Notes: generated from the sequence alone by a model not told the origin. A DNA stretch of 64,000 nucleotides from Candidatus Methanomethylophilaceae archaeon (GCA_963590665.1 CAVAPR010000004.1:10492-74491), one strand, 5' to 3'; positions 5,026 through 56,398 are shown, counted from the stretch's first letter. Made by a program: numbers and translations.

Positions 5026-5032
5026 TTCAAAA

Positions 5033-5140
5033 GTGTATAAGTTGATAAGTCTATAAGTCTATAAGTCTATAAGTTGGTTTCAAGGAAATAGGGGAATAAG
5101 TTCGTTACAAAAGGCTTTAAGACACTGAGTTCTTTATGTA
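5033..5140 (+). repeat. left terminal inverted repeat of the 5033-7385 unit
   Basis: GTGTATAAGTTGATAAGT (5033-5050) plus TTCGTTACAAAAGGCTTTAAGACACTGAGTTCTTTATGTA (about 5101-5140). Both recur inverted at 7329-7385. Confidence 0.8.
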
Positions 5141-5426
5141 TTTAATGTTATTCTGAAGGATAAACTGTTGAATAGGTAAAATAACATTGCAAATTTGCTT
5201 GAAGAATCTCAAACCAAGCGCACCAGCTTGAGATACTTCGCTTCGCTCAGTATGACGTAACCCGTGTAGTCATTCCGAAATGCGGATTTTGGCAAGAGCG
5301 AAGCTCGTCATGGGGAGGGTTGCGTTGAGCCAGCCGACCCGCCAATAATCCAAGACGGTTTCGGAATCTCTATCCAAATGCACTAGTTAGAGATGCTGAA
5401 ATAAATTCAGCATGACATATTGGAAT

Positions 5427-5536
5427 AGGGGTTCGGGGGCAAAGCTCCTGATGACTCGAACCATTCAATCATTCGTGTTTTTCTTTTTCGGTTCTACTTT
5501 TTCTTTTTTCATCGAAATAAAAAAGAAAAAGTGAAC
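5427..5536 (+). repeat. F module copy 1 (110-nt interspersed element)
   Basis: AGGGGTTCGGGGGCAAAGC.CCTGATGACTCGA.CCATT..ATCATTCGTGTTTTTCTTTTTCGGTTCTACTTTTTCTTTTTTCATCGAAATAAAAAAGAAAAAGTGAAC. Near-identical to 6787-6896, 24826-24935 and 52880-52991. Confidence 0.9.
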
Positions 5537-5700
5537 ATTATAATAATCAACCCCTCTCCCTAGCCCTTAACCTCTCACAAAACAATTCACTGGATTGTTT
5601 TGCTCGGCAGAGTCCTTGGAGAGGGAATGATATTTCTACATTTTACAAGTTGCTTTGTTTATCTGTCAGCTTAGTAAAGCCGACATTTTATTTTCAATAC

Positions 5701-6414
5701 TTACTTCTTTCTTTTCCAAACTCTATCATCAATTTTCCAATTATTACTTTTTACGTATGCCAAACACCAATACCCATCACCACTCAAGCAGTTATTTTCA
5801 ATTTCTTCTTTCGATTTGTCATAACCCGCAGGAAGTAATGCTTCTCTATTTGGGTCATAAACCATAATATAAATATCTTTTCCTATAATATTTGGCTTTT
5901 TGTCCCCATTAGCATCAAAATAAAATTCTAGTGTAGTTTGAGTTGTTTTGACTCCAAAGATACTCCAAGCCTTACTTGCACTATAACCATCAAGACTATA
6001 ATATGCACCTTTTGCGGTTTTAAATGTAAATTCATATCCCATACCATACTTACTTTGCCAATAAGGAGTACCACCATTTAAAGTTTTCACAATCCCGCTA
6101 TTGTGCCAACATCCAGCTTGTTGAAAACAAACTTGTTCAACCTTCATATATGGGGCAATATAAATATCATACCAATCTTTCATTCCTTGAGTTGTCTGAA
6201 TTATGGGAATAATTTCTACATCATCATTTTGAGCCATTCTCATTGTTTGAGCAATATTAGTGTAATTTTCTTTTAATTGGGATTCAATTTGCGCTTTCTG
6301 AACTTTTGTTATCAATGTTGGAATTGTCATAGCTGCAACAACTCCAATAATCCCAAGTGTAATAAGAACCTCTGCGAGAGTAAACCCTAAATTACGTGAA
6401 TTGTAATCAAACAT
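5701..6414 (-). CDS. prepilin-type N-terminal cleavage/methylation domain protein (type IV pilin-like)
   Basis: N-terminus MFDYNSRNLG|FTLAEVLITLGIIGVVAAMTIPTL fits the class III signal peptide (G-F-T-L-x-E plus hydrophobic helix). Shares the paralog motif FDANGDKKPNIIGKDIYIMVY. Confidence 0.85.
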   Translation of the reverse strand: MFDYNSRNLGFTLAEVLITLGIIGVVAAMTIPTLITKVQKAQIESQLKENYTNIAQTMRMAQNDDVEIIPIIQTTQGMKDWYDIYIAPYMKVEQVCFQQAGCWHNSGIVKTLNGGTPYWQSKYGMGYEFTFKTAKGAYYSLDGYSASKAWSIFGVKTTQTTLEFYFDANGDKKPNIIGKDIYIMVYDPNREALLPAGYDKSKEEIENNCLSGDGYWCLAYVKSNNWKIDDRVWKRKK

Positions 6415-6428
6415 ATTTGCCCCATTTC

Positions 6429-6447
6429 TACTGGATATTATCCAGTA
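6429..6447. promoter_or_regulatory. 19-bp perfect palindrome, candidate XRE operator
   Basis: TACTGGATA-T-TATCCAGTA lies between the divergent pilin-like (ATG 6414) and XRE (ATG 6481) genes. An extra half-site TTCCAGTA sits at 6463-6470. Confidence 0.55.
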
Positions 6448-6480
6448 AGATTATGTTATCATTTCCAGTAAAATTGTCAA

Positions 6481-6696
6481 ATGAATGAAGCAGAATTTTA
6501 CCAAAAATTAGGACGACAAATAAAAACCTTGAGAGAAAATGCACATTTAACCCAAGAAAAACTTGCCGAAAAATCTGGCATAAGTCTTGATTATTTAGGA
6601 AAAATTGAAGTTAACATAAATAAACCAGGATTAAAAACACTTTTAAAAATTGCAAACGCACTAAATTTACCCATTAAAAAACTTTTTGATTTTTAA
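6481..6696 (+). CDS. XRE-family helix-turn-helix transcriptional regulator
   Basis: 71 aa. LRENAHLTQEKLAEKSGISLDYLGKIE is a classic Cro/C1-type HTH. Confidence 0.85.
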   Translation: MNEAEFYQKLGRQIKTLRENAHLTQEKLAEKSGISLDYLGKIEVNINKPGLKTLLKIANALNLPIKKLFDF

Positions 6697-6786
6697 TATT
6701 TTTTATTGACAGGCATGACCATTCTAGTATGGTCTTTGCGAACGTGTAGAGATACTTCGCTTCGCTCAGTATGACAAAATTTGATA

Positions 6787-6896
6787 AGGGGTTCGGGGGC
6801 AAAGCCCCTGATGACTCGAGCCATTTAGTCATTCGTGTTTTTCTTTTTCGGTTCTACTTTTTCTTTTTTCGTCGAAATAAAAAAGAAAAAGTGAAC
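6787..6896 (+). repeat. F module copy 2
   Basis: Near-identical to 5427-5536. Confidence 0.9.
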
Positions 6897-7328
6897 AGTT
6901 ATTTTTTTGTCGGATTAGTAAATCCGATCTACATTACTAATCTGACATTAAAAAATAAGCTGGATTGCTTCGCATTCGCTCGCAATGACTGGATTTGAGA
7001 AGAATTTTTCATATTCATCATACTGAGCGGAGCGAAGTATCTCAAAGTTAACAAATATGTCACCCTGAATTTAGTTCAGGGTCTCTAACTGGTGCGTTCT
7101 GATAGAGATGCTGAAACAAGTTCAGCATGATGTATTTATATGGCTCTCTCCAAGGGAGAGAGTGAAATTGTCTTTGAGCTTTAGCGAAAAAGTACAATTT
7201 CGAGAGAGGGTTTTTCTTTTTTCTAATCAACCCCTCTCCTAACCTCAGCCATACGGCACGCAGTTTCACACAACTCAACTTCGTTTCGTTGGTTCAGCTA
7301 GTGTCCCTAGGAGAGGACATAATTTTAT

Positions 7329-7385
7329 TACATAAAGAACTCAGTGCCTTAGAGCCTTTTGTAACAAACTTATCAACTTATACAC
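7329..7385 (-). repeat. right terminal inverted repeat of the 5033-7385 unit
   Basis: The reverse complement reads GTGTATAAGTTGATAAGTTTGTTACAAAAGGCTCTAAGGCACTGAGTTCTTTATGTA. Its first 18 nt are identical to 5033-5050. Confidence 0.8.
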
Positions 7386-7397
7386 TTATTGACTTTA

Positions 7398-8237
7398 TTA
7401 AGGCAATGACATTTTGATACGTTCAATATCATTAAAATCAGAAGGTTTTGATTTCTTTTCACTATTACCCAACATTACAACTGCATCAACTTTCGCAGTT
7501 ATCCTTCTTGAATTTGCAGGGAAAATTGTTATATCTTGGTACTCGTTACTTCTAATTAGATTTTCTACCCTCTGTTTATCTATAGTGCTCAAATACGGAG
7601 AACGTACCGTTATATCCCTTATCGCACCATCAGAAGTTACGATAAATGAATAATAAAACCAAGTTCCAACACCATAATCATCTAGGGATGTTATAGACAT
7701 ACTCTCGTCTAAAATTTTATTGATAAATTCACTCTTCCAAGTGTTCCAGTCAATATTTTTGATTACATAGCTACCAGAAGTTCTTTGATTATTGGTTCTT
7801 GTTGAAGCATTGTTAAGTTGGGTTCTTGCGTTTTCCAAACGTTGTTTACGATTTTTGAAATCATCAAAGTTTTTGTAATAATTGCTTTGACCATTACCAG
7901 AAGTATTTTGATTACTATAACTTGTATCTTGGTTATCAAATGGTTCAAAATCAATATCCGTTCTCTCAGATTGTACCCTTGAACCATTTACCTTCATGCC
8001 TGTATCTTGAAGATTAACTCCTGTATTATTAGCTGAAAGATTTTTATTAGAGAATTTTGAATTAGTTGAATTTACATTTGCGCCCTTGTTTTCAATATTT
8101 GCATTCTCGTTATTCAACGACAAACTCTGATTTGTAAATGAAACCTTTTTGCGTTGAGAAACATCCATTGACATCGCAATAATAGTCAACAAAACAAACA
8201 AAACTATTCCAACTATTACAAAATTCTTTTTATTCAT
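7398..8237 (-). CDS. membrane-anchored N/S/Q-rich protein with possible TonB_C-like C-terminal domain
   Basis: N-terminal TM helix (FVIVGIVLFVLLTIIAMSM), a long low-complexity Asn-rich linker, then a ~90-aa C-terminal globular region (YYSFIVTSDGAIRDITVRSPYLSTIDKQRVENLI...FPAN). Domain call is tentative. Confidence 0.45.
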   Translation of the reverse strand: MNKKNFVIVGIVLFVLLTIIAMSMDVSQRKKVSFTNQSLSLNNENANIENKGANVNSTNSKFSNKNLSANNTGVNLQDTGMKVNGSRVQSERTDIDFEPFDNQDTSYSNQNTSGNGQSNYYKNFDDFKNRKQRLENARTQLNNASTRTNNQRTSGSYVIKNIDWNTWKSEFINKILDESMSITSLDDYGVGTWFYYSFIVTSDGAIRDITVRSPYLSTIDKQRVENLIRSNEYQDITIFPANSRRITAKVDAVVMLGNSEKKSKPSDFNDIERIKMSLP

Positions 8238-24719: not shown

Positions 24720-25368
24720 TGGTAGCTGCAGGTAAGTCCCATCTTGCTATGTTCTTACTAGGAATTTCAACTAATGCGTATGGATAGAAATTCCGAAACG
24801 GTCTTGAATTATTGGCGTACTCAATAGGGGTTCGGGGGCAAAGCCCCTGATAACTCGAGCCATTTTATCATTCGTGTTTTTCTTTTTCGATTCTACTTTT
24901 TCTTTTTTCATCGAAATAAAAAAGAAAAAGTGAATATTAGAACAATCAACCCCTCTCCATGGAATATAGAACTACGTCACCTTGAACTTGTTTCAGGGTC
25001 TCTAGCTGGTGCGTTCGGGTAGAGATTCCGAAACTAGTTCGGAATGACAGTACGAGTTTGTGTCATACTGAGCGGAGCGAAGTATCTCTATCTAAACTTG
25101 TTAGGTTTACCCCTCACCTCAATCCTCTCCCCAAGGAGAGGAAGATTTTTTATAGATTCTTTGCATTCGCTCAGAATGACTGAATTTGCTATAGCTAAGC
25201 CCCTTATTCTGTTAAAAACATAAAGAACTCAGTGCCTTAGTGCCTTAAAGCCTTTTGTAACGAACTTATAGACTTATCCACTTATAGACTTTTATTCAAT
25301 CAACCCCTCACCCTATCCCTCTCCCTCGGAGAGGGAAAATGTTATGTAACCAACTTATAGACTTTTGA
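24720..25368. repeat. mosaic palindromic repeat block 3
   Basis: Contains F module copy 3, GTCACCTTGAACTTGTTTCAGGGTCTCT and GTCATACTGAGCGGAGCGAAGTATCTC modules, the ACATAAAGAACTCAGTGCCTTAG...GTAACGAACTTATAGACTTATCCACTTATAGAC right-edge module, and CCCTCTCC hairpins. Confidence 0.9.
24826..24935 (+). repeat. F module copy 3
   Basis: Near-identical to 5427-5536. Confidence 0.9.
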
Positions 25369-35062: not shown

Positions 35063-35440
35063 GTCATCCTGAGCAGAGCGAAGGATCTCTAACATAGGCG
35101 TTCTGATAGAGATTCCGAACTAAATTCGGAATGACTGTTGCGCACAACTCTCTCCAAGGGAGACACTAGCCGAACAGGTGAAGCGAAGCTGAACCTTGTG
35201 AGACTGCGTACCTTTAGGTTGAGTGAAATTGTCTTTAAGCTGTTGCGAAAAGATACAATTTCGAGAGAGGGTTTTTCTTTTATAATCAACCCCTCTCCCT
35301 ACCCTCTCCCTCGGAGAGGGTGACTTATCCACTTATGGACTTATCAACTCTTTATGTAATGAACTTATTCCCTTATTTCCTTCTTCCTTTTCCCTTGTAA
35401 CGAACTTATCCACTTATCAACTTATAGACCTATAGACTTT
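35063..35440. repeat. mosaic palindromic repeat block 4
   Basis: Contains a GTCATCCTGAGCAGAGCGAAGGATCTCT module, an AGAGATTCCGAACTAAATTCGGAATGAC hairpin, a CTCTCCAAGGGAGA hairpin split by a 57-nt insert (35164-35220), CCCTCTCC hairpins, and an ACTTAT 8-mer array at the right edge. Confidence 0.9.
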
Positions 35441-35444
35441 TTAA

Positions 35445-39645: not shown

Positions 39646-39963
39646 TTATTCGGCTTTTCCCATAACGTGAATATGCAAGTGCATAACTTCTTGTCCAGCT
39701 TCTTTGCCAGTATTTATTTGAACTTTATATGCTTTTAGCCCAGCTTTTTTAGCAGAATCTTTGACAGCTTGCATAAGTTCAGCCATCAAATTTTTATCAT
39801 CTAATTCAATTAAAGATTGAATATGTTTTTTAGGACACACAAGCAAATGAACTGGAGCTTTAGGATTTATGTCTTTAAAAACAACAGTATTTTCTGTTTC
39901 ATAAACAAACTCTGTTCCAAAATCCCCGTTAATAATCTTACAAAAAATACAATCTTCACTCAT
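39646..39963 (-). CDS. histidine triad (HIT) family protein
   Basis: CIFCKI N-terminus and HLHIHVMG triad. Confidence 0.9.
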   Translation of the reverse strand: MSEDCIFCKIINGDFGTEFVYETENTVVFKDINPKAPVHLLVCPKKHIQSLIELDDKNLMAELMQAVKDSAKKAGLKAYKVQINTGKEAGQEVMHLHIHVMGKAE

Positions 39964-40363
39964 CTTGATTTCTCCTAACTAAAATTAAATAACCAATACG
40001 AAAAACCCGTATATTGATAAATATAACATAAATAAAGTCTATAAGTCTATAAGTTGATAAGTGAATAAGTCTATAAGTTCGTTACGTAAATTTTCCCTCC
40101 CCAAGGGTGGAGGGATTAAGGGAGAGGGGTTGATGTATAAGGAAAAAGGGACAAGGGAAATAGGGAAATAAGTTCGTTACATAACATTTTCCCTCTCCAA
40201 GAGACACTAGCGGAACCAATAGTTTTACCCTCTCCTTGAGGAGAGGGCTAGGGTGAGGTGGTAAACAGAACAAGCCGAACCTATGAAACTGAGTGCCGTA
40301 TAACTAAGGGCAGGGAGAGGGGTTAACTCAATGCATAGGATATAAAATACTACCCAGAATGAA

Positions 40364-40541
40364 GATACAGCTGTTTCCCCTCCACTTTGAGGGAGGGGAA
40401 GAATTTCAATACGAACTATGTGAGTATTAGAAATTCAGGGGAGGGGGATATTTAATTTCAAACCCCTCCTCGAAATCAAAGATTTCGGTCCTCCCACAAT
40501 CTGGGGAGGACATTATTCTTGGAGTATCAATTGTATGGTCT
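40364..40541 (-). repeat. K element copy 1 (148-nt multi-hairpin core at 40364-40511)
   Basis: Its reverse complement differs from copies 2 and 3 at one position of the 148-nt core (CTCAAAGTGG versus CTCAGAGTGG). Confidence 0.9.
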
Positions 40542-40830
40542 TAATCTGTTTTCTTCTTTGAGAGAGAAGATTTATCTAAACGCATAGGATAGAGATTCTT
40601 CGGGTAAATTTGTAATATTGTTTTTTACATTCAATTATTTACCCCTCAGAATGACTGAACTCTATTTTCCCTCCCCAAGGGTGGAGGGATTAAGGGAGAG
40701 GGTTCTTTTTTTCTAATAAACCCCTCTCCTAACCTCTCCCTCGGAGAGGAATTATGTTCAATATCTTAACAAGCCCGTCATACTGAGCGGAGCGAAGTAT
40801 CTCAAGCTGAACGAGTTCAGATTAACCCCT
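40364..40830 (-). repeat. left arm of the long inverted repeat flanking the pilin-like gene
   Basis: Its reverse complement aligns with 42097-42546 from AGGGGTTAATCTGAAC... to ...GGGGAAACAGCTGTATC. The alignment is interrupted only by module-sized indels. Confidence 0.85.
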
Positions 40831-41794
40831 ATCTATAGTTAATATAATCAGTCCAGTAGTTGTTATGACGAGTTACAGTCTTACCTTTTGCAGAAGTACC
40901 TGTATCTTTTTTATTTCCTAATCTATCAGCCCAGTCCATAGCGGCAATATTTTCTACAGGTTCATTAAAATAGCAATAATCAACCGCAGACCCAGAACCT
41001 TTTCTGTATCCAGTTTGACTTGGCATTTTATTCCCCCAACTATCACTAGAGATTTTATTTATATCACAAAGAACAAATTGACCAGAATAATTGCCAACAT
41101 GCGGGTCATCTGGGTTTTCATTATTTATATATATAGCTATTTCTTTAGCTGTCATTGGTTTAAAAATAAATGTATCTATATTCATTCTATTTGGCGCAGC
41201 TGTTCCATTTATATCAACACAAACGAACTGATTTTCACCATTGAAAGTCCATATACGACCTTTTGAATCAGTCCAAATTCCACCGTTATCACAAACAATT
41301 CCTGGAGATCCTGTTTTATCTTCAGTTTCAGTATTATGAAACCATTTTGGTCCTTGCGGAGCACCAGCATCTTTATATATTTGTTTTAACCTCCCACTTA
41401 TACCATTACTTGAATTAGCATTCTTATCAAAAGGTGCACCTCCTGCTAAATATGACATAAATTCACTTGCCCAACGTCTTGTATCACCATAGACATTTTT
41501 ACCTGCAGCAGTTTGAGTACCACATCTAAAGTTTGGGGCTTTTGACATATCAGTATATACACATTTATAAGCGAACTCACCAACATCGCCATTTTCATAG
41601 TTCATTCTAGCGCCAATTTCTTTGACTTCGCTATATGTTGAGCGGAACTGTTGTTCCAAAACTTTTCCACGGTAATTGTATGCCAAAGTTGGGATTGTCA
41701 ACGCTGCAACAGACCCCAAAAGCCCAATCGCTATCAACAATTCCGCCAATGTAAAACCAGATTTTTTATGCCAAAAACTCACGATTATAACCAA
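40829..41794 (-). CDS. prepilin-type N-terminal cleavage/methylation domain protein (type IV pilin-like, long form)
   Basis: HKKSG|FTLAELLIAIGLLGSVAALTIPTL. Paralog motif VDINGTAAPNRMNIDTFIFKP. 321 aa. Confidence 0.85.
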   Translation of the reverse strand: MVIIVSFWHKKSGFTLAELLIAIGLLGSVAALTIPTLAYNYRGKVLEQQFRSTYSEVKEIGARMNYENGDVGEFAYKCVYTDMSKAPNFRCGTQTAAGKNVYGDTRRWASEFMSYLAGGAPFDKNANSSNGISGRLKQIYKDAGAPQGPKWFHNTETEDKTGSPGIVCDNGGIWTDSKGRIWTFNGENQFVCVDINGTAAPNRMNIDTFIFKPMTAKEIAIYINNENPDDPHVGNYSGQFVLCDINKISSDSWGNKMPSQTGYRKGSGSAVDYCYFNEPVENIAAMDWADRLGNKKDTGTSAKGKTVTRHNNYWTDYINYR

Positions 41795-42096
41795 TCCTCA
41801 TAAACTTCCAATAACATGTTTATTATAACGTATTTTTTGCCTAAAGTCTAGAGGAGGGTGAGAAATGTTGTGAGGAACTTGTTTTAGAATTTCTGGCTAA
41901 ATGCACCAGTTAGAGATGCTGAAACAGCTAATGGCTTCGTCAACGCATACAGACTCACACGTTTCGCCTACAGCTCAACGGTTCGCTTTGTAAAGTTCAA
42001 CATGACAAGTGTGTTCGGTTTACCTCCTCACCCTAACCCTCTCCTCAAGGAGAGGGAAATTCTGTGTTCCTTCTCCCTTGGGAGAAGGTTAGGATG

Positions 42097-42546
42097 AGGG
42101 GTTAATCTGAACTTGTTCAGCTTGAGATACTTCGCTCCGCTCAGTATGACAAACTTGTTAAGATATTGAACATAATTCCTCTCCGAGGGACACTAGCTGA
42201 ACCAACGAAACGAAGTTGAGTTGTGTGAAACTGCGTGCCGTATGGCTGAGGTTAGGAGAAGGGTTGATTAGAAAAAAGAAAAATCCTCTCCCTTAGTCCC
42301 TCCACCCTTGGGGAGGGAAAATAGTGCTATTATTCTGAGGGACAAGTAATTGAATGTAAAAAACAGGCTAAGACTATACAATTGATACTCCAAGAATTGT
42401 CCTCCCCAGATTGTGGGAGGACCGAAATCTTTGATTTCGAGGAGGGGTTTGAAATTAAATATCCCCCTCCCCTGAATTTCTAATACTCACATAGTTCGTA
42501 TTGAAATTCTTCCCCTCCCTCAGAGTGGAGGGGAAACAGCTGTATC
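42097..42546 (+). repeat. right arm of the long inverted repeat flanking the pilin-like gene
   Basis: See the left arm. Contains a 59-nt insert (42191-42249) that is absent from the left arm. Confidence 0.85.
42371..42546 (+). repeat. K element copy 2 (core 42399-42546)
   Basis: The 148-nt core is identical to copy 3. Confidence 0.9.
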
Positions 42547-42591
42547 CTCATTCTGAATAGTATGAAAATGTTATGTAACCAACTTGTAGAC

Positions 42592-43164
42592 TTATCTTAT
42601 CCTTTTACCCAAAGACAAGCCTGCAGGAAGTGGTAAAACTACATTTTCGAAATCAGGGTCTGCATCAATTGCATCTAAAAATGTCTGTACTTTTGCTGCG
42701 TGAGAAATTACATTATCACAAGCAATATAACCACCTACGTTTAAATGTGGTTTTATAAATTCGAAAAACTTAATATATTGCGATTTATTCGCATCAATAA
42801 ATGCGAAATCTATCCTAAAATCCTCTGGCAAATATTCCAAAATCGTTGCGGCATCGCCTTTTCTGGTTTCAATAATATCCCCAACTCCGCATTTTTCAAA
42901 ATTTTCTTTTGCGACATCTAATCTCTTATCGTAAAACTCAATTGTAGTCAACTTACCACCAGTTTTTTTAAGAGCTTTGCCTAACCAAATTCCAGAATAA
43001 CCGTTAGAAGTTCCAACTTCTACAACACTTTTTGCTTTGGAATCAACAATCAAATTGTACAAAAATTCCGCAGTTGGTCGTGAAATATTCCAAAATTGTT
43101 TTTGGGTTTTTTCTAATTCTTTCAAGACTTCTTGAGTCGTGTTATCAAATGTTTCTATAATCAT
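42592..43164 (-). CDS. class I SAM-dependent O-methyltransferase (family 3, caffeoyl-CoA OMT-like)
   Basis: VVEVGTSNGYSGIWLG SAM motif, and IDANKSQY. Confidence 0.8.
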   Translation of the reverse strand: MIIETFDNTTQEVLKELEKTQKQFWNISRPTAEFLYNLIVDSKAKSVVEVGTSNGYSGIWLGKALKKTGGKLTTIEFYDKRLDVAKENFEKCGVGDIIETRKGDAATILEYLPEDFRIDFAFIDANKSQYIKFFEFIKPHLNVGGYIACDNVISHAAKVQTFLDAIDADPDFENVVLPLPAGLSLGKRIR

Positions 43165-50313: not shown

Positions 50314-51021
50314 TTAATAATTCATTCTCCAGCCAGCTTGCATAATTTTATTCAAACAACCAGCAGACCATTCGTGCCAAGCAGTACTAATATTCTTTCC
50401 ACAATTTTCGGGAGGAACACCACCACGACCATAATCTGCAACTGTGCCATCTGTCATTAAGTCAACAGTAAAGAAATCACGACCCGCCATATTTGGTTCA
50501 GCTGGACCATTTGTATCAATAACATACGATGGAATACCATTAGCTTGATTATAACCACCACAAATAGTAGCCCCATTTGTTGTTTGGATACAATAACCAA
50601 AACTTGTTACAACACCAGCCTCACCAGTAGTATCAGAAGCATTAATTTTTGTTTTATGAGCGCCATCCATAGTTTGATAATAATCACCCAAACAAACATT
50701 GTTAGGAGAATATGCTTTTGTTCCACAACCTTTTTTAGTTGTTTTAAAATATTTTGGAAGGAAATAACAAGCGCCTTGAGCCTTATCAGTTCCACAATAT
50801 GCATCATTGGTAGCTAAACGAGTTTTGTACAAACTATCAGCCATTTCATCTGCCATAATAGCTTTTGTCGCATCAGATAGTTGAGAATAAGTTTTCTCAA
50901 TAGATGCAGCCATAACTTTATTTTTATAATCTTTCATAATTGCAGGTATAGTTAATGCTGAAATCAATCCAACAATACCCATAGTTACCAAAACTTCTGA
51001 TAGTGTAAAACCTTTTTTCAT
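50314..51021 (-). CDS. prepilin-type N-terminal cleavage/methylation domain protein (type IV pilin-like)
   Basis: Start at ATG 51021: MKKG|FTLSEVLVTMGIVGLISALTIPAI. IDTNGPAEPNMAGRDFFTVDL. C-terminal AGWRMNY. Closest paralog of 24006..24707. Confidence 0.88.
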   Translation of the reverse strand: MKKGFTLSEVLVTMGIVGLISALTIPAIMKDYKNKVMAASIEKTYSQLSDATKAIMADEMADSLYKTRLATNDAYCGTDKAQGACYFLPKYFKTTKKGCGTKAYSPNNVCLGDYYQTMDGAHKTKINASDTTGEAGVVTSFGYCIQTTNGATICGGYNQANGIPSYVIDTNGPAEPNMAGRDFFTVDLMTDGTVADYGRGGVPPENCGKNISTAWHEWSAGCLNKIMQAGWRMNY

Positions 51022-51089
51022 ATTCCAATCGCCCCGTGAATAAACCATATAAACAATTATACTATTTTTTTTGAATATTTTCAAGTGGG

Positions 51090-51700
51090 AAGTTTTTGTT
51101 AAGGTTGATAGGTCTATAAGTTAGTTACAAGGGGATAGGGAAATAAGTTCGTTACATTGCATTTTTACCCTCTCCTTGGGGAGAAGAAACTTAATATTCC
51201 CCTTCTCCTTGAGGACACTAGCTGAACCAACAACTTTTCCCTCTCCGAGGGAGAGGGACTAAGGGAGAGGGGTTGATTAAGAAAATAAAGACGTCATTCT
51301 GAGGGATTTACATTAGAATAGCAAGATAACATTGCAAATTTACCCGAAGAATCTCAATCCTATGCGTTTAGATAAACCTTCTCTCTCAAAGAAGAAAACA
51401 GACTAAGACCATACAATTGATACTCCAAGAATAATGTCCTCCCCAGATTGTGGGAGGACCGAAATCTTTGATTTCGAGGAGGGGTTTGAAATTAAATATC
51501 CCCCTCCCCTGAATTTCTAATACTCACATAGTTCGTATTGAAATTCTTCCCCTCCCTCAGAGTGGAGGGGAAACAGCTGTATCTTCATCCTGGGTAGTAT
51601 TTATATCCTATGTGTTTAGTTTAACCCCTCTCCCTGTCCTAACCCTCGGAGAGGATAACCAACTTATAGACTTATCCACTCATTGACTTATAAACCTAAA
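51090..51700. repeat. mosaic palindromic repeat block 7 (no gene inside)
   Basis: Bounded by inverted 8-mer edges (GGTCTATAAGTTAGTTAC... and ...AACTTATAGACTTATCCACTCATTGACTTATAA). The interior is largely the reverse complement of block 5 and includes K core copy 3. Confidence 0.9.
51406..51583 (+). repeat. K element copy 3 (core 51436-51583)
   Basis: Core identical to copy 2. Flanks match the reverse complement of 40320-40660. Confidence 0.9.
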
Positions 51701-51753
51701 AAAATAACCGACGTAAAAACATCGGTTATTTTCATCAATTCAAAAAACTTTTA

Positions 51754-52413
51754 TTAGTCGTTGATAACTTTCAAAAGTCTTTCCCATACTTCATCAATTG
51801 AACCTTCTGCATTGATTGTTTTCAACAAGTTTTTATTTTTGTAATAATCAAACAATGGTGCAGTTTCTTTGAAATATGTATCAAAACGAGCTTTTGCTGT
51901 TTCTTCGTTGTCGTCTTTTCTTTGAGTCAATTCAGCGCCACATTTGTCACAAATACCTTCAACTTTTGTAGGTTTGAATTTCAAGTTGTAGATTTCTCCA
52001 CATTTTGGACAAGAACGACGGTTCACAATTCTTGAAATCAAAATTTCAGTATCTAAATCAAAATAAATTGCTCTAAAATCAGCTTCAATATCGCCATCGA
52101 TTTCTTTGTTAATTTCTTCTAACAAGTCAGCTTGTTCAACACTTCTTGGGTAACCATCCAAGATATAACCGTTTTTGCAATCTTCTTGAGATAGTCTATC
52201 TTTGATGATAGAAGCAACTAAAGAAACTGGAACTAATTCACCTTTGTCGATGAAAGATTTAGCGATTTTACCATTTTCAGTTCCGTTTTTGATTTCAGCT
52301 CTTAATAATGAACCAGTATCAACATGTGGAAAACCTAAAGATTCAGCAAGTCTTGAAGTTTGAGTACCTTTACCACAAGCTGGAGGTCCTAAAAAAATAA
52401 GTTCTTTTTTCAT
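51754..52413 (-). CDS. adk: adenylate kinase
   Basis: Start at ATG 52413: MKKELIFLGPPACGKGTQ P-loop, and a zinc-lid CPKCG...CDKCG. Confidence 0.97.
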   Translation of the reverse strand: MKKELIFLGPPACGKGTQTSRLAESLGFPHVDTGSLLRAEIKNGTENGKIAKSFIDKGELVPVSLVASIIKDRLSQEDCKNGYILDGYPRSVEQADLLEEINKEIDGDIEADFRAIYFDLDTEILISRIVNRRSCPKCGEIYNLKFKPTKVEGICDKCGAELTQRKDDNEETAKARFDTYFKETAPLFDYYKNKNLLKTINAEGSIDEVWERLLKVIND

Positions 52414-52504
52414 AATCATTTCACTCTTTCTATTTTTTATACCAAATATTTTAATCTCGTTAAAACCAACAGAACAATTGTACATCAAGGATTTTTATTA
52501 TTCA

Positions 52505-53165
52505 AGAAGGTTTTAATAAAGTGGATAAGTCAATAAGTCTATAAGTGGATAGGGTGGTTAAAAGGGATAAGGAAGAAGGGAATAGGGGAATAAGTTCTTT
52601 ACATTGCAATTTACCCTCTCCTTGAGGAGAGGGCTAGGGTGAGGTGGTAAACAAAACGCATTGGTCACCCCGAACTCGTTTCAGCATCTCAATCCTATGT
52701 GTTCAGTTTAACCCCTCACCTCAATCCTCTCCCCAAGGAGAGGAAGATATTTTATTGAGATACTTCGCTTCGCTCAGTATGACTAACACCGAACAGTCAT
52801 TCCGAATTTAGTTCGGAATCTCTATCCAAACGCACTAGTTAGAGATGCTGAAACAAGTTCAGCATGACATATTTGAATAAGGGGGGTTCGGGGGCTATGC
52901 CCCTGATGACTCGAGCCATTTAATCATTCGTGTTTTTCTTTTTCGGTTCTGCTTTTTCTTTTTTCATCGAAATAAAAAAGAAAAAGTGAACAATTATTTT
53001 ATATCGGATTTAATAAACCGACAAACATTTCTTTATTAAATCAACCCCTCTCCCTTACCCTCTTCCCTTGGAGAGGGTATAAAATTGACGGTTCTGAACT
53101 TATTTCCCTATTCCCCTGTTCCTTCTCCCTTTTAACCAACTTATTGACCTATAGACTTTTAGTGA
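52505..53165. repeat. mosaic palindromic repeat block 8 (no gene inside)
   Basis: Inverted edges at 52520-52600 and 53095-53160. Interior holds the same modules as block 1, including F module copy 4. Confidence 0.9.
52880..52991 (+). repeat. F module copy 4
   Basis: Near-identical to 5427-5536. Confidence 0.9.
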
Positions 53166-53245
53166 ATATTCCCTTTAAATATTCCTTTTTTGTAGTAAAA
53201 TGTTCCATGTAATACGGTATGTACAAAAGGAAAGGACTTAAATAC

Positions 53246-55505: not shown

Positions 55506-55534
55506 TTGACATGAATTTTTGCTTAATTTACTAT
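55506..55534 (+). promoter_or_regulatory. candidate sigma-70 promoter of the 55685-58382 operon
   Basis: TTGACA (55506-55511), 17-nt spacer, TACTAT (55529-55534). Confidence 0.55.
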
Positions 55535-55540
55535 CAAAAT

Positions 55541-55684
55541 AAGAGGAAATGAAGTGAATATCTTCAACTGAAGCCGCAGCCGTAAAAGTCGGAACGCTCG
55601 AAAAAAGAACCAATCCTACGTGCAATTTGGGATTGGGAGATACTTCTTTTTTATAGCGTCCTCTAAAATTTAGAGGATTTTTTA
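55541..55684 (+). promoter_or_regulatory. structured 5' leader with terminator/anti-terminator and RBS sequestration
   Basis: Hairpin TCCTCTA/TAGAGGA (55659-55665 / 55671-55677) followed by TTTTTT, ending 1 nt before ATG 55685. The only SD (AGAGGA, 55672-77) is the 3' half of that stem. An upstream AAGAGGA (55541-47) can pair with the 5' half instead. An internal perfect 7-bp hairpin CCAATCC/GGATTGG lies at 55610-55635. Confidence 0.5.
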
Positions 55685-56398
55685 ATGTCATTAGGTGCAA
55701 CCGCAGTACATACTCATACAGCCAAAACTGGTTCATGCCCGCATGGCTTGCCACAAGGAGCATGCCCAATTTGTAATGGGTTAGCTGGCGGAAACTCCAC
55801 AACAAAAAGAGATATACCAAGAAATGTTGGAGAAATGACATACAACCAATGCGCAGCAATTGGTGCAATGCTCAGAGCGCAAAAACATGCCAGACAACAA
55901 GCTCAATTAGCTCAACAAAATCATTTGCAGGCAATAGCCGAGTTTCAAAAATCGATTGCTACAGCTTACCAAAGAATTATGGATTTAGCTTCTAGTATTT
56001 CTAAAAGTACACCAGCCATAATCGCAAAACCATTAAATTTTGTTTTAACAAATATCATTGGGCGAACTTTAAATATTATTCAAAATATTCCAAATGTTAT
56101 TTCTAATATAACAAGCGCAATTATTCAAAAATTTGCAGACATATCAGATAAATTAACAGCAGTATATGGAGAATTAAAAGCGGCAATCAAAGAAAAAATC
56201 TCTAAATTTACAAATAACTTTAAAAAGAAATTAAAATCTCTCTTCTTTGTTTTCGGAACAGAAGAAACTGATGACGAGGACAAAAAAATTGAAGAAGCTA
56301 AAAGAGCATTTGAATTAAAAACATTTATTCACAAGCTTTTTGGCAAAACTAAAAACCTAAACGAAAAGGAAACAAAAAAGGATGATACCTCCGATTAA
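55685..56398 (+). CDS. hypothetical protein with N-terminal CPHG...CPIC zinc-ribbon-like motif and amphipathic/coiled-coil body
   Basis: 237-aa ORF containing GSCPHGLPQGACPICNG and a K/E/D-rich C-terminus. Confidence 0.6.
   Translation: MSLGATAVHTHTAKTGSCPHGLPQGACPICNGLAGGNSTTKRDIPRNVGEMTYNQCAAIGAMLRAQKHARQQAQLAQQNHLQAIAEFQKSIATAYQRIMDLASSISKSTPAIIAKPLNFVLTNIIGRTLNIIQNIPNVISNITSAIIQKFADISDKLTAVYGELKAAIKEKISKFTNNFKKKLKSLFFVFGTEETDDEDKKIEEAKRAFELKTFIHKLFGKTKNLNEKETKKDDTSD

What the first reader, a model, noticed from the sequence alone, without database searches (positions are those of the whole stretch)
40364..42546. ~450-470 bp imperfect inverted repeats bracket a single pilin-like gene
Seen in sequence:
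- The reverse complement of 40364-40830 aligns end to end with 42097-42546, from AGGGGTTAATCTGAAC..GTTCAGCTTGAGATACTTCGCTCCGCTCAGTATGAC through the 148-nt K core.
- Differences are mostly module-sized indels: a 59-nt insert at 42191-42249 only in the right arm, and a ~75-nt segment only in the left arm.
- The left arm ends exactly at the stop codon of the 321-aa pilin-like gene (40829-41794). The right arm starts about 300 nt upstream of its start codon.
- The larger unit 40028-42594 is additionally capped by inverted CTATAAGT-type 8-mer arrays.

Inference, three non-exclusive consequences:
- The segment could invert by homologous recombination.
- The gene could move as a cassette.
- A read-through transcript would fold into a very long dsRNA stem enclosing the ORF, a possible RNase III or antisense control point.

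Inversion of a segment carrying its own promoter would not by itself switch expression, so the function is open.
Basis: partly seen in the sequence, partly recalled or inferred. Interest (0 to 1): 0.75.

Follow-up and report, generated by a model that had tools for sequence, protein, structure and literature searches.

The report
Mosaic hairpin-repeat arrays flank pilin gene
The long inverted repeat is real, but it is two copies of a genome-wide mosaic of hairpin repeats (much like the Neisseria intergenic repeat arrays) wrapped around a pilin-like gene that related gut Melainabacteria strains have gained and lost as a block; it does not look like a dedicated inversion switch.

Summary
The reverse complement of 40347-40830 aligns with 42097-42563 at 95% identity, apart from two module-sized indels. 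The arms are not a private pair, though. Eight intergenic gaps in the window are filled by the same mosaic of hairpin modules. Each array is punctuated by ~20-bp CCCTCYCC-loop-GGRGAGGG palindromes and capped by inverted (ATAAGTNN)n-GTTACRTAA ends.

The organism is a Candidatus Gastranaerophilales bacterium. In 18 of 18 related contigs the pilin-like gene lies in the same orientation, so there is no sign of inversion. One near relative and all more distant species have the O-methyltransferase and HIT genes directly adjacent.

Arm content changes from strain to strain. Six configurations have long inverted arms made of different modules. In the commonest configuration seen among contigs carrying the nuclease gene, both arms carry a 98-aa GIY-YIG nuclease gene in direct orientation, flanked by hairpin doublets that also occur in six of the window's eight arrays.

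The closest known system is the Neisseria NIME/dRS3-NTS arrays with the SsnA single-strand nuclease. The published Ssn motif itself is not matched. A long double-stranded RNA stem is thermodynamically possible but not conserved. Verdict: new variant of a known kind, of moderate interest.

The parts
40035..42595 (-). Whole cap-bounded unit (U4): cap, left array, pilin-like gene, promoter segment, right array, cap. It is inserted between the HIT gene (39646-39963) and the O-methyltransferase gene (42592-43164).
   Evidence: Inward-facing caps at both ends. The whole block is absent in L135 and in all outgroup species.
40041..40089 (+). Left cap: four to five tandem 8-mers (ATAAGTNN) followed by ATAAGTTCGTTACGTAA. 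A second cap-like copy lies at 40168-40184.
   Evidence: 16 matches against 1.2 expected; 30 against 0.8 expected. It mirrors 42571-42595 (pairs I9, I10 and I14).
40347..40830 (.). Left arm of the inverted repeat: the inner part of array A5 (40031-40830).
   Evidence: The RNA fold z-score is -11.9.
42097..42563 (.). Right arm of the inverted repeat: the outer part of array A6 (41881-42593).
   Evidence: The RNA fold z-score is -8.0.
40347..40552 (-). K composite, left copy. It contains the ~48-nt double hairpin (GTCCTCCC-loop-GGGAGGAC, then CGAAATC-loop-GATTTCG, then AGGAGGGG) that is conserved across Gastranaerophilales species.
   Evidence: Three window copies are identical over about 125 nt. 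The central 24-mer is found in at least 119 stretches of many species. The DNA fold z-score is -5.4.
42360..42563 (+). K composite, right copy.
51293..51640 (+). Third copy of the extended K composite, lying in the gene-free unit U5 (51108-51691).
   Evidence: (93% over 350 nt to 40307-40655).
40777..40803 (+). GTCATACTGAGCGGAGCGAAGTATCTC module at the inner end of the left arm. Its mirror copy is at 42124-42150 (-).
   Evidence: Seven copies plus two variants in the window against about 0 expected. It shares only the GTCAT...ATC frame with the Neisseria NTS/NTSvar motifs. It is not a stable hairpin (DNA fold z = -1.0).
40829..41782 (-). Pilin-like gene of 317 aa, counted from the probable GTG start (the longest ORF runs to the TTG at 41794). 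It has a prepilin-type N-terminal methylation motif.
   Evidence: There are 119 homologues, some named type II secretion / GspH-family / prepilin-type proteins of Gastranaerophilales. Orthologues are 83-91% identical where the flanking proteins are 95-98% identical.
41783..41926 (-). Positionally conserved upstream segment. It holds a promoter-like site (TAGACT, 17 nt, TATAAT; 41850-41822), a GAGGA ribosome-binding site, and half of the hairpin doublet that flanks the GIY-YIG genes in L195.
   Evidence: It is 90-94% conserved in position in all relatives while the rest of the spacer is reshuffled. It is 90% identical over 147 nt to L195:4430-4576.
42571..42595 (-). Right cap. It overlaps the stop codon of the O-methyltransferase gene; the ancestral ...ATAAGATAAG end of that gene resembles an 8-mer unit.
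5029..7389 (-). Sister unit U1. It has the same cap-array-gene-array-cap architecture around a second pilin-like gene (5701-6414).
   Evidence: terminal inverted repeat, 22 of 23 bases.
52525..53152 (.). Gene-free cap-bounded unit U6. Together with U5 it brackets the adenylate kinase gene (51754-52419).

Best explanation
The two arms are two intergenic mosaic repeat arrays of one genome-wide system in a Candidatus Gastranaerophilales (Melainabacteria) genome.

Each array is a string of short modules of 30-200 nt. The modules are punctuated by ~20-bp G/C-rich palindromes (CCCTCYCC-loop-GGRGAGGG) and closed at the gene-facing edge by a cap made of tandem ATAAGTNN 8-mers plus GTTACRTAA.

Arrays and the enclosed pilin-like gene were inserted together into an ancestrally tight O-methyltransferase-HIT operon junction, and were lost again in at least one lineage.

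Module content turns over quickly between strains. In this strain the same ~470-nt string of modules, including the recently spread K composite, has ended up in both arrays in opposite orientation, probably by ectopic recombination or gene conversion between arrays. Inverted copies persist because they cannot delete the gene, whereas direct copies can.

Sister strains carry a 98-aa single-domain GIY-YIG nuclease gene inside both arms, wrapped in a hairpin doublet that also occurs in six of the window's eight arrays. I infer that the arrays are the cognate hairpin repeats of an Ssn-like single-strand DNA nuclease. Like the Neisseria NIME/NTS arrays, they would act at the DNA level, as dispersed homology and as nuclease targets in single-stranded DNA that modulate recombinational exchange, gain and loss of the surface-protein gene they enclose.

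Shown here: repeat anatomy, dispersal, strain turnover, block gain and loss, constant gene orientation, and the nuclease gene inside the arms of sister strains. Inferred: the nuclease-repeat interaction, the effect on recombination or transformation, and how the inverted copy arose.
For: - Dispersal. Eight arrays fill whole intergenic gaps. All 20 Y-stem/R-stem palindromes lie in the arrays, which are 7.6% of the window, against 0.07 expected. Caps are enriched 13- to 38-fold and bound four units with inward-facing terminal inverted repeats. The K 24-mer occurs in at least 119 stretches across many Gastranaerophilales species.
- Turnover. Strains with the identical pilin protein have spacers of 322-627 nt and 228 to over 900 nt, built from reshuffled modules. 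Only the promoter-proximal segments stay in place.
- Block gain and loss. The site is empty in L135 and in every outgroup species. The flank tree is ((occupied group, L135), WIN) with empty outgroups. L135 retains a cap-like remnant.
- Pilin-like gene indels recur at two other loci.
- Arrays associate with pilin-like genes in the window: 5 of 6 adjacent gaps against 3 of 49 others, p = 9e-5.
- Nuclease. A GIY-YIG ORF lies in L137 between OMT and the pilin gene (Pfam 56 bits). The layout OMT-GIY-pilin-GIY-HIT is seen on 23 contigs. The flanking hairpin doublet has a DNA fold z-score of -5.0 and is present in 6 of 8 window arrays at 82-92% identity.
- Published analogue: NIME arrays (PMC1797815) and NTS/SsnA (PMC11893778).
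Against: - The published Ssn-related motif has zero strict hits in the window and no enrichment when relaxed: 9 hits against 12 expected.
- No GIY-YIG gene lies in the 64-kb window. Whether this strain has one elsewhere is unknown.
- Membership of the nuclease in CDD family cd10448 could not be tested. The PDB gives only weak hits to UPF0213 proteins.
- Across genomes the K module shows no association with pilin-like genes, 3 of 68, so the association may hold only for some module types or some lineages.
- Natural transformation is not demonstrated for this uncultured lineage.
- The empty near-relative site rests on a single 86-kb contig (L135).
- Long, nearly identical inverted arms recur in six strain configurations. 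That could mean the inverted geometry is itself selected, which this explanation treats as incidental.
Confidence: 0.6

Rival explanations
1. Cap-bounded units are non-autonomous transposable elements (MITE-like, or composite-transposon-like with cargo). The caps are terminal inverted repeats with subterminal 8-mer binding sites for a transposase encoded elsewhere, and U4 and U1 are elements that captured a pilin-like gene and transposed as units.
For: - Four units have inward-facing terminal inverted repeats; in U1, 22 of 23 terminal bases mirror each other.
- Two units of about 600 nt have no gene, and two units of 2.4-2.6 kb each carry one pilin-like gene.
- The whole U4 block is absent in L135 and in the outgroups.
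- The three K copies are nearly identical, which suggests recent copying.
Against: - No target-site duplication at any of the four units.
- No transposase in the window region or in the orthologous loci.
- Arrays sit at the same positions in related strains while their inner content changes, which is not the pattern of new insertions.
- The number of 8-mers varies from 1 to 5 between strains, as expected from slippage.
- L135 keeps part of a cap, so it is not a clean empty site.
Confidence: 0.15
2. The inverted arms are a recombinational inversion (phase-variation) device. Homologous or site-specific recombination between the arms flips the pilin-like gene relative to its neighbours and changes its expression or that of HIT.
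For: - The arms share a 206-nt tract at 96% identity and a 166-nt tract at 98%, ample for RecA-dependent recombination.
- Long inverted arms at 94-98.5% identity recur in six strain configurations, consistent with continuing exchange between the arms.
- The adenylate kinase gene, bracketed by units U5 and U6, has the opposite orientation relative to MntP compared with a sister lineage.
Against: - The gene has the same orientation in 18 of 18 readable loci, plus about 28 collapsed similar contigs.
- No invertase or recombinase gene lies nearby.
- The gene carries its own conserved promoter-like site inside the segment, so flipping would not switch it.
- Arm content is not conserved, and the arms are direct repeats in L195/L196.
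Confidence: 0.05
3. The arms act at the RNA level. Read-through transcription from the O-methyltransferase gene produces an RNA in which the arms pair into a duplex of about 400 bp enclosing the pilin ORF. This would be an RNase III substrate that controls pilin or HIT expression, or insulates the inserted gene from the operon.
For: - All three genes are on the same strand.
- The minimum-energy fold of the 2261-nt read-through RNA has 395 arm-to-arm pairs, at -1052 kcal/mol against -662 kcal/mol for local folding only.
- No intrinsic terminator separates the genes.
Against: - Each arm folds strongly on its own (z = -8 and -12), which would compete with long-range pairing during transcription.
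- The pilin promoter-like site lies downstream of the 5' arm.
- The inverted geometry and the arm sequence are not conserved among strains that have the same gene.
- Across genomes the modules show no strand preference relative to neighbouring genes: 20 gaps in the same sense as both neighbours, 25 antisense to both, 17 convergent and 6 divergent.
- No Rfam family is reached.
Confidence: 0.07
4. The arrays are purely selfish or structural REP/BIME-type repeats that accumulate wherever intergenic space tolerates them. The pilin-like gene is an ordinary accessory gene exchanged by recombination in the flanking housekeeping genes, and the arrays have no causal role in its gain or loss.
For: - Arrays also flank a housekeeping gene, adenylate kinase, and fill gaps with no pilin-like gene (A3, A4).
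- Across genomes, K modules are not linked to pilin-like genes.
- One pilin-like gene indel in a sister lineage has no caps or arrays, only a 14-nt direct repeat.
Against: - Arrays are significantly associated with pilin-like genes in the window, p = 9e-5.
- The block boundaries coincide with the caps.
- A nuclease gene with its flanking hairpin doublets lies in both arms in sister strains, and next to another variable pilin-like cassette.
Confidence: 0.13

Closest known systems
Neisserial intergenic mosaic elements (NIME arrays: dRS3 20-bp palindromes flanking RS segments; Parkhill 2000, Bentley 2007, PMC1797815)
   Same: - Long intergenic arrays built from many families of 50-150-nt segments, punctuated by ~20-bp palindromes; here 20 of 20 such palindromes lie in arrays, spaced 65-260 nt.
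- Arrays hold syntenic positions while length and content vary strongly between strains.
- They associate with surface-protein genes, including pilin loci (for Neisseria).
- The array-flanked gene diverges faster than its neighbours: 83% against 95-98% protein identity.
   Different: - The palindrome sequence differs: CCCTCYCC-N3-8-GGRGAGGG here, against ATTCCC-N8-GGGAAT.
- The host differs: an AT-rich (33% GC) non-photosynthetic relative of cyanobacteria.
- There is an extra feature, inverted caps of tandem 8-mers that bound whole units.
- Bentley et al. stated that NIME arrays had not been seen outside Neisseria.
NTS / Ssn-related hairpin motifs with the SsnA GIY-YIG single-strand DNA nuclease (Chenal et al. 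2025, PMC11893778)
   Same: - A single-domain GIY-YIG protein of about 95-98 aa.
- Its gene is flanked on both sides by copies of a hairpin repeat, the repeat-gene-repeat layout.
- The same repeat is dispersed in many gene-free copies around other genes.
- One hairpin reads GTCATTCCGAA...TTCGGAATC, which shares the GTCATTCC...GGAATC frame of the NTS.
- The repeats surround pilin-type genes.
   Different: - The published degenerate motif is not matched or enriched.
- The stems are AT-richer.
- cd10448 membership and single-strand cleavage are untested.
- The window itself has no nuclease gene.
- Most array modules (K, the G-rich palindromes, the caps) have no counterpart in the Ssn description.
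Minimal mobile elements of Neisseria (Saunders and Snyder; cited in PMC1797815)
   Same: A slot between two conserved housekeeping genes holds a gene in some strains and is empty in others, with no transposase or integrase and no target-site duplication.
   Different: - Here the slot content is wrapped in repeat arrays with inverted caps.
- I saw only presence or absence of one gene family at this slot, not alternative genes.
- Exchange by natural transformation is assumed, not shown.
REP/BIME elements of enterobacteria and REPIN-RAYT systems of Pseudomonas (from general knowledge)
   Same: - Extragenic palindromic units combined into mosaics.
- Located mostly between convergent or co-directional genes: 62 of 68 gaps, with only 6 divergent.
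- Hairpin doublets in inverted orientation, like REPINs.
- A single-copy trans-acting nuclease gene flanked by its own repeats.
   Different: - The associated protein is a GIY-YIG nuclease, not an IS200/IS605-like tyrosine (HUH) transposase.
- The arrays are much longer (0.4-0.8 kb) and more heterogeneous.
- Caps of tandem 8-mers are not a REP/BIME feature.
Invertible-DNA switches for pili (fimS/FimBE in E. coli; Piv-mediated pilin inversion in Moraxella) (from general knowledge)
   Same: Inverted repeats bracket a pilus-related DNA segment.
   Different: - Those systems use short inverted repeats (9-30 bp) and an adjacent site-specific recombinase, and both orientations are found in populations.
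- Here the arms are about 470 nt and variable, no recombinase is nearby, and only one orientation is seen.

Membership tests
NIME-type intergenic mosaic arrays | Arrays of heterogeneous 50-150-nt repeat segments punctuated by a conserved ~20-bp palindrome | tested here: met
   20 of 20 palindromes of the form CCCTCYCC-N3-8-GGRGAGGG lie in the eight arrays, against 0.07 expected, with spacing of 65-260 nt. The segments between them belong to multiple dispersed families.
NIME-type intergenic mosaic arrays | The palindrome is dRS3 (ATTCCC-N8-GGGAAT) and the host is Neisseria | tested here: not met
   The palindrome sequence and the host differ. So this is an analogue, not a member of the Neisseria family.
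NIME-type intergenic mosaic arrays | Syntenic arrays vary in length and content between strains, and the adjacent genes are more divergent | tested here: met
   Spacers run from 322-627 nt and from 228 to over 900 nt among strains with the identical pilin protein. The pilin protein is 83% identical where the flanking proteins are 95-98% identical.
Ssn nuclease / Ssn-related motif system | A small (~94 aa) single-domain GIY-YIG protein | tested here: met
   A 98-aa ORF in L137, L195 and L196 matches Pfam PF01541 at 56.4 bits over residues 5-79 and has no other domain. It lies in sister strains, not in the window.
Ssn nuclease / Ssn-related motif system | The protein belongs to CDD family cd10448 (GIY-YIG_unchar_3) and is homologous to N. 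meningitidis SsnA | not testable with these tools
   No CDD library and no SsnA sequence were available. The PDB search gives only weak hits to UPF0213 proteins, E = 0.02. At least 7,800 single-domain homologues of about 95 aa exist.
Ssn nuclease / Ssn-related motif system | The gene is flanked 5' and 3' by its hairpin repeat, and many gene-free copies occur in the genome | tested here: met
   Direct copies of the ~75-90-nt doublet lie on both sides of the gene in L137 and L195. The doublet is present in 6 of 8 window arrays.
Ssn nuclease / Ssn-related motif system | The repeats match the published motif HGTCWYN(0-2)YYVSBRHN(0-5)WNVSBRGN(0-2)RNCYNB and are enriched over shuffles | tested here: not met
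   Zero strict hits. With up to 2 substitutions, 9 hits against 12.2 expected.
Ssn nuclease / Ssn-related motif system | Sequence-specific cleavage of single-stranded DNA at the hairpin, and an effect on transformation | not testable with these tools
   These are biochemical and genetic assays.
MITE / composite transposon | Terminal inverted repeats | tested here: met
   Caps at the ends of U1, U4, U5 and U6.
MITE / composite transposon | Target-site duplication, and insertion polymorphism at non-syntenic sites | tested here: not met
   No duplication at any of the four units. Arrays are syntenic in relatives.
Site-specific invertible switch | An adjacent recombinase gene, and both orientations present among genomes | tested here: not met
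   No recombinase within about 8 kb. One orientation in 18 of 18 loci.
Curated RNA families (Rfam 15) | A match at or above the family's gathering score | tested here: not met
   There are only sub-threshold hairpin look-alikes: whalefall-1 at 21-28 bits against a gathering score of 37, and miRNA precursor models.

The most novel reading that the evidence does not exclude
The cap-bounded mosaic units could be a previously undescribed class of mobile DNA. They would move, or be exchanged, as single-stranded intermediates processed by the small GIY-YIG nuclease acting on their hairpin modules, and they would carry surface-protein (pilin-like) genes as cargo. That would make a GIY-YIG enzyme the engine of a gene-cassette system, and would make the inverted arms (a panhandle in single-stranded DNA) a functional part of it.
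Probability: 0.12. Interest if true: 0.85.

Novelty: new variant of a known kind. Interest (0 to 1): 0.55.

Why it matters
NIME arrays were described as specific to Neisseria, and their partner nuclease (SsnA) was identified only in 2025.

This locus shows the same construction principle in an uncultured gut lineage related to cyanobacteria:
- palindrome-punctuated mosaic arrays around pilin-type surface genes;
- a tiny GIY-YIG nuclease gene wrapped in its own hairpins;
- gain and loss of the enclosed gene as a block.

That suggests convergent, or very widely shared, machinery for diversifying surface structures in host-associated bacteria. It also offers natural allelic series for testing what such arrays do: empty sites, sites with inverted arms, and sites with direct arms that carry the nuclease gene.

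On the practical side, these arrays break metagenome assemblies. Several contigs end inside them, and they can be misread as invertible switches.

Tried and rejected
- Looking up the exact 321-aa pilin protein found nothing. The exact HIT protein occurs only on two contigs of about 1 kb, so the window's own strain is barely represented.
- The promoter/terminator scan shows no enrichment over shuffles, so the modules are not classical intrinsic terminators.
- Rfam at gathering score finds only an unrelated AdoCbl riboswitch. With permissive thresholds it finds only sub-threshold hairpin look-alikes.
- There are no tRNA or tmRNA genes, so a tRNA-targeted island is unlikely.
- Literature searches for repeats or pilins in Melainabacteria gave nothing relevant.
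- The published Ssn motif is not matched.
- tblastn finds no GIY-YIG remnant in the window.
- The roughly 120 K-module loci contain no OMT/HIT region and show no general association with pilin-like genes.
- No target-site duplications were found.
- The supplements of the Ssn paper are not held, so SsnA could not be compared directly.
- I considered that P0012 (69% identical) shows the gene moved between loci. It may simply be a paralogue in another species, so I draw no conclusion from it.
Full report
**1. The observation**

The inverted repeat exists. The repeat finder reports colinear inverted blocks: 40347-40512/42398-42563 (166 nt, 98%), 40737-40830/42097-42190 (94 nt, 96%), and three further blocks of 45-51 nt. 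A global alignment of the reverse complement of 40347-40830 with 42097-42563 gives 385 matches, 20 mismatches and two large indels: 57 nt only on the right (42191-42247) and about 72 nt only on the left. The score is 606, against 3.9 +/- 2.7 for shuffles.

The left arm overlaps the stop codon of the minus-strand ORF 40829-41794. The right arm begins about 300 nt upstream of its start. The ORF carries the prepilin N-terminal methylation motif: Pfam PF07963, leader ...KKSG|FTLAELL. The most likely start is the GTG at 41782, downstream of a GAGGA. The outer inverted 8-mer arrays are also real.

**2. The arms are not a private pair**

A self-comparison of the window shows that the same modules fill eight intergenic gaps: 5029-5559, 6747-7399, 24823-25364, 35082-35444, 40031-40830, 41881-42593, 51108-51698 and 52513-53162. 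Each ends at the neighbouring genes and is about 40% GC in a 33% GC genome.

A third copy of the central K composite lies at 51293-51640. The three copies are identical over about 125 nt. The module-sized indels between the arms are themselves dispersed modules.

Three kinds of building block stand out.
- **Palindromes.** About 20-bp palindromes with a pyrimidine 5' stem and a purine 3' stem (CCCTCYCC-loop-GGRGAGGG). All 20 in the window lie inside arrays, against 0.07 expected, and they are spaced 65-260 nt apart.
- **Caps.** Tandem ATAAGTNN 8-mers followed by ATAAGTTSGTTACRTAA, 13- to 38-fold enriched. They sit at array edges next to genes.
- **Variable segments.** These include the K composite and a GTCATACTGAGCGRAGCGAAGTATCTC module with seven copies.

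Inward-facing cap pairs bound four units. U1 (5029-7389) and U4 (40035-42595) each contain one pilin-like gene. U5 (51108-51691) and U6 (52525-53152) contain no gene and bracket adenylate kinase. None of the four has a target-site duplication.

In the window, arrays are associated with pilin-like genes: 5 of 6 adjacent gaps against 3 of 49 others, Fisher p = 9e-5.

**3. Organism and distribution**

Homologues of the pilin-like protein, where they are named, come from Candidatus Gastranaerophilales and are called type II secretion or prepilin-type proteins. Many genomes hold many copies, and the complete MEL.A1 chromosome is among them.

Across species only a ~48-nt double hairpin is conserved. 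Copies show no strand preference relative to neighbouring genes and are depleted between divergent genes: 45 co-directional, 17 convergent and 6 divergent gaps. That is the pattern of REP-like DNA elements, not of a strand-specific RNA. No curated RNA family is matched.

**4. Comparative test of the three proposed consequences**

*Orientation.* In 18 of 18 related loci that contain the gene it is co-oriented with the O-methyltransferase (OMT) and HIT genes. About 28 more contigs were collapsed by the tool as similar. No recombinase or transposase lies within about 8 kb; all neighbours are housekeeping genes.

*Cassette.* A scan with the OMT protein as bait returned 52 loci. In all species with 75-88% OMT identity where both genes are on the contig, OMT and HIT are 10-106 nt apart. 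In many of them the HIT ribosome-binding site directly follows the OMT stop codon, so this is an ancestral operon junction.

Within the window's own clade, L135 (flank proteins 95-98% identical) has only a 115-nt spacer and no pilin gene. A tree of the flanking genes places L135 as sister to the occupied P0003/P0001 group, with the window outside both and the empty species as outgroups. That implies one gain and a secondary loss, and the L135 spacer keeps a cap-like remnant.

In every occupied locus the cap begins directly after the OMT stop, with 1-5 8-mer units.

Pilin-like genes are also present or absent at two other loci. One is downstream of adk in a sister lineage, a 1.17-kb indel with a 14-nt direct repeat. 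The other is beside a GIY-YIG gene, together with an HTH regulator.

*RNA stem.* A read-through RNA would favour arm-to-arm pairing: 395 pairs, at -1052 kcal/mol against -662 kcal/mol for local folding only. But each arm also folds strongly on its own, with z = -8 and -12. The gene's conserved promoter-like site (TAGACT, 17 nt, TATAAT at 41850-41822) lies inside the right arm's inner edge.

**5. Arm content is fluid**

Strains that encode the identical pilin protein have spacers of very different length, built from reshuffled modules. Only about 90 nt upstream of the pilin start and about 70-100 nt upstream of HIT keep their position.

Among 11 distinct complete configurations:
- six have long inverted matches between the spacers (127-344 nt at 94-98.5%), made of different modules;
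- three have only short matches (L001 and L003 under 50 nt inverted, L151 79 nt);
- two have long direct matches of 424 nt.

The K composite on the upstream side is specific to the window's strain. Inverted arms are therefore recurrent but not conserved in sequence. I suggest ectopic exchange between the two arrays creates them, and that survivorship keeps them: direct repeats would delete the gene. I cannot exclude selection for the inverted geometry itself.

**6. A nuclease gene in the arms of sister strains**

A motif search of about 1.5 Mb of related loci found one small GIY-YIG ORF, in L137, between OMT and the pilin gene. Pfam confirms a single GIY-YIG domain: 56 bits, 98 aa.

A 99% identical protein (P0240) was read on 23 contigs, with the layout OMT, GIY-YIG, pilin, GIY-YIG, HIT. 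The two copies are direct and 87% identical.

Each gene is flanked by a ~75-nt doublet of two hairpins in inverted orientation, with a DNA fold z-score of -5.0. One of the two reads GTCATTCCGAA...TTCGGAATC, the frame of the Neisseria NTS. This doublet occurs, without the gene, in six of the eight arrays of the window. That includes a half-unit just upstream of the pilin promoter.

**7. Comparison with known systems**

Bentley et al. (PMC1797815) describe NIME arrays as 20-bp dRS3 palindromes flanking more than 100 families of 50-150-bp segments. The arrays are clustered, syntenic but variable between strains, and associated with more divergent surface-protein genes, including the silent pilin loci. 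The authors proposed that they promote exchange of adjacent genes, and stated that they had not been seen outside Neisseria.

Chenal et al. (PMC11893778) showed that a longer hairpin containing dRS3 (the NTS) is cut in single-stranded DNA by the 94-aa GIY-YIG protein SsnA. The ssnA gene is typically flanked by its repeats. Transforming DNA with an NTS-gene-NTS configuration integrates less well in SsnA-positive cells. Thousands of homologues exist across phyla.

The locus studied here shares the array architecture, the strain dynamics, the link to surface genes and the repeat-nuclease-repeat layout. It fails the published motif, and I could not test cd10448 membership or biochemistry. So it works like these systems as far as anatomy goes, but it is not a member of the Neisseria families.

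**8. Verdict**

The finding is real and far above chance, but its interpretation changes. It is not a locus-specific inversion device. It is one instance of a lineage-wide, NIME-like mosaic repeat system that wraps a strain-variable pilin-like gene.

- The inversion idea is not supported.
- The RNA-stem idea is possible but not conserved.
- The link to an Ssn-like nuclease is an inference from architecture in sister strains.

I rate it a new variant of a known kind, with moderate interest (0.55).

Noticed in passing
window 55530-55605 (+): An AdoCbl-II (cobalamin) riboswitch aptamer above Rfam's gathering score (40 bits against 36.5), upstream of the plus-strand ORF 55685-56398.
   Followed up: no
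window 5029-7389: A second cap-bounded unit with the same architecture: cap, array, pilin-like gene 5701-6414 (N_methyl motif), array, cap. Its terminal inverted repeat matches at 22 of 23 bases. I did not test whether it is also present or absent among strains.
   Followed up: partly
window 50314-53218; loci L187-L194: Adenylate kinase (51754-52419, minus strand) is bracketed by two gene-free cap-bounded units. It has the opposite orientation relative to MntP compared with a sister lineage (adk 87% identical). The right-hand synteny also differs (phosphofructokinase here, PEP carboxykinase there). So rearrangement breakpoints coincide with the arrays.
   Followed up: partly
L188:3766-4960 versus L187:3766-3790: Among strains with the identical adk protein, a 1.17-kb indel carries a 242-aa pilin-like gene, and possibly a small divergent HTH-like ORF. 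It is flanked by a ~14-nt direct repeat (AAAAAKTWGGTCGGCA) and has no caps.
   Followed up: partly
L199-L202:1818-3058 versus L201: A 243-aa pilin-like gene plus a divergent 107-aa HTH_3 regulator is present in some strains and absent in others. It lies immediately beside a second GIY-YIG paralogue (P0243), upstream of a peptidase M29 gene.
   Followed up: partly
L195:6915-7649 (also an extra ~890 nt in L140 between HIT and SpeE): A strain-variable 244-aa protein made of tandem DVATIDGGTLPEVVITAPKPEK repeats is inserted between HIT and spermidine synthase. The window has only 38 nt there.
   Followed up: no
window 40020-40049 (-) and the caps generally: On the minus strand the 8-mer cap reads ...CTTATAGACTTATAGACTT. 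This supplies a TAGACT -35-like hexamer 18 nt upstream of a TG-TATATT -10-like box in front of HIT, the gene that the insertion cut off from its operon. The pilin promoter-like site also uses TAGACT. The number of 8-mers varies from 1 to 5 between strains.
   Followed up: partly
L002, L009, L010, L136-L138, L197; P0120-P0125: Many contigs of related strains end inside these arrays. The window's closest adk relatives exist only on contigs of 1-3 kb. So the arrays systematically fragment short-read metagenome assemblies of this lineage.
   Followed up: partly
L080 (labelled Muribaculaceae), L089 (labelled Clostridium sp.): The K-core 24-mer, otherwise confined to Gastranaerophilales/Melainabacteria bins, also hits contigs of bins labelled as other taxa. 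These are probably mis-binned contigs.
   Followed up: no
window 40226-40260, 40374-40446, 42024-42058, 42283-42321, 42464-42536: Five sub-threshold matches (21-28 bits, gathering score 37) of the G-rich palindromes to the Rfam whalefall-1 hairpin motif. This is most likely a generic hairpin resemblance.
   Followed up: no
L132-L134: A 69% identical homologue of the pilin-like protein (P0012) lies in a different neighbourhood, between 5-formyltetrahydrofolate cyclo-ligase and a ClpP-side gene. Its spacers are about 85-90 nt and carry no arrays. Whether it is a paralogue or a relocated orthologue is undetermined.
   Followed up: partly
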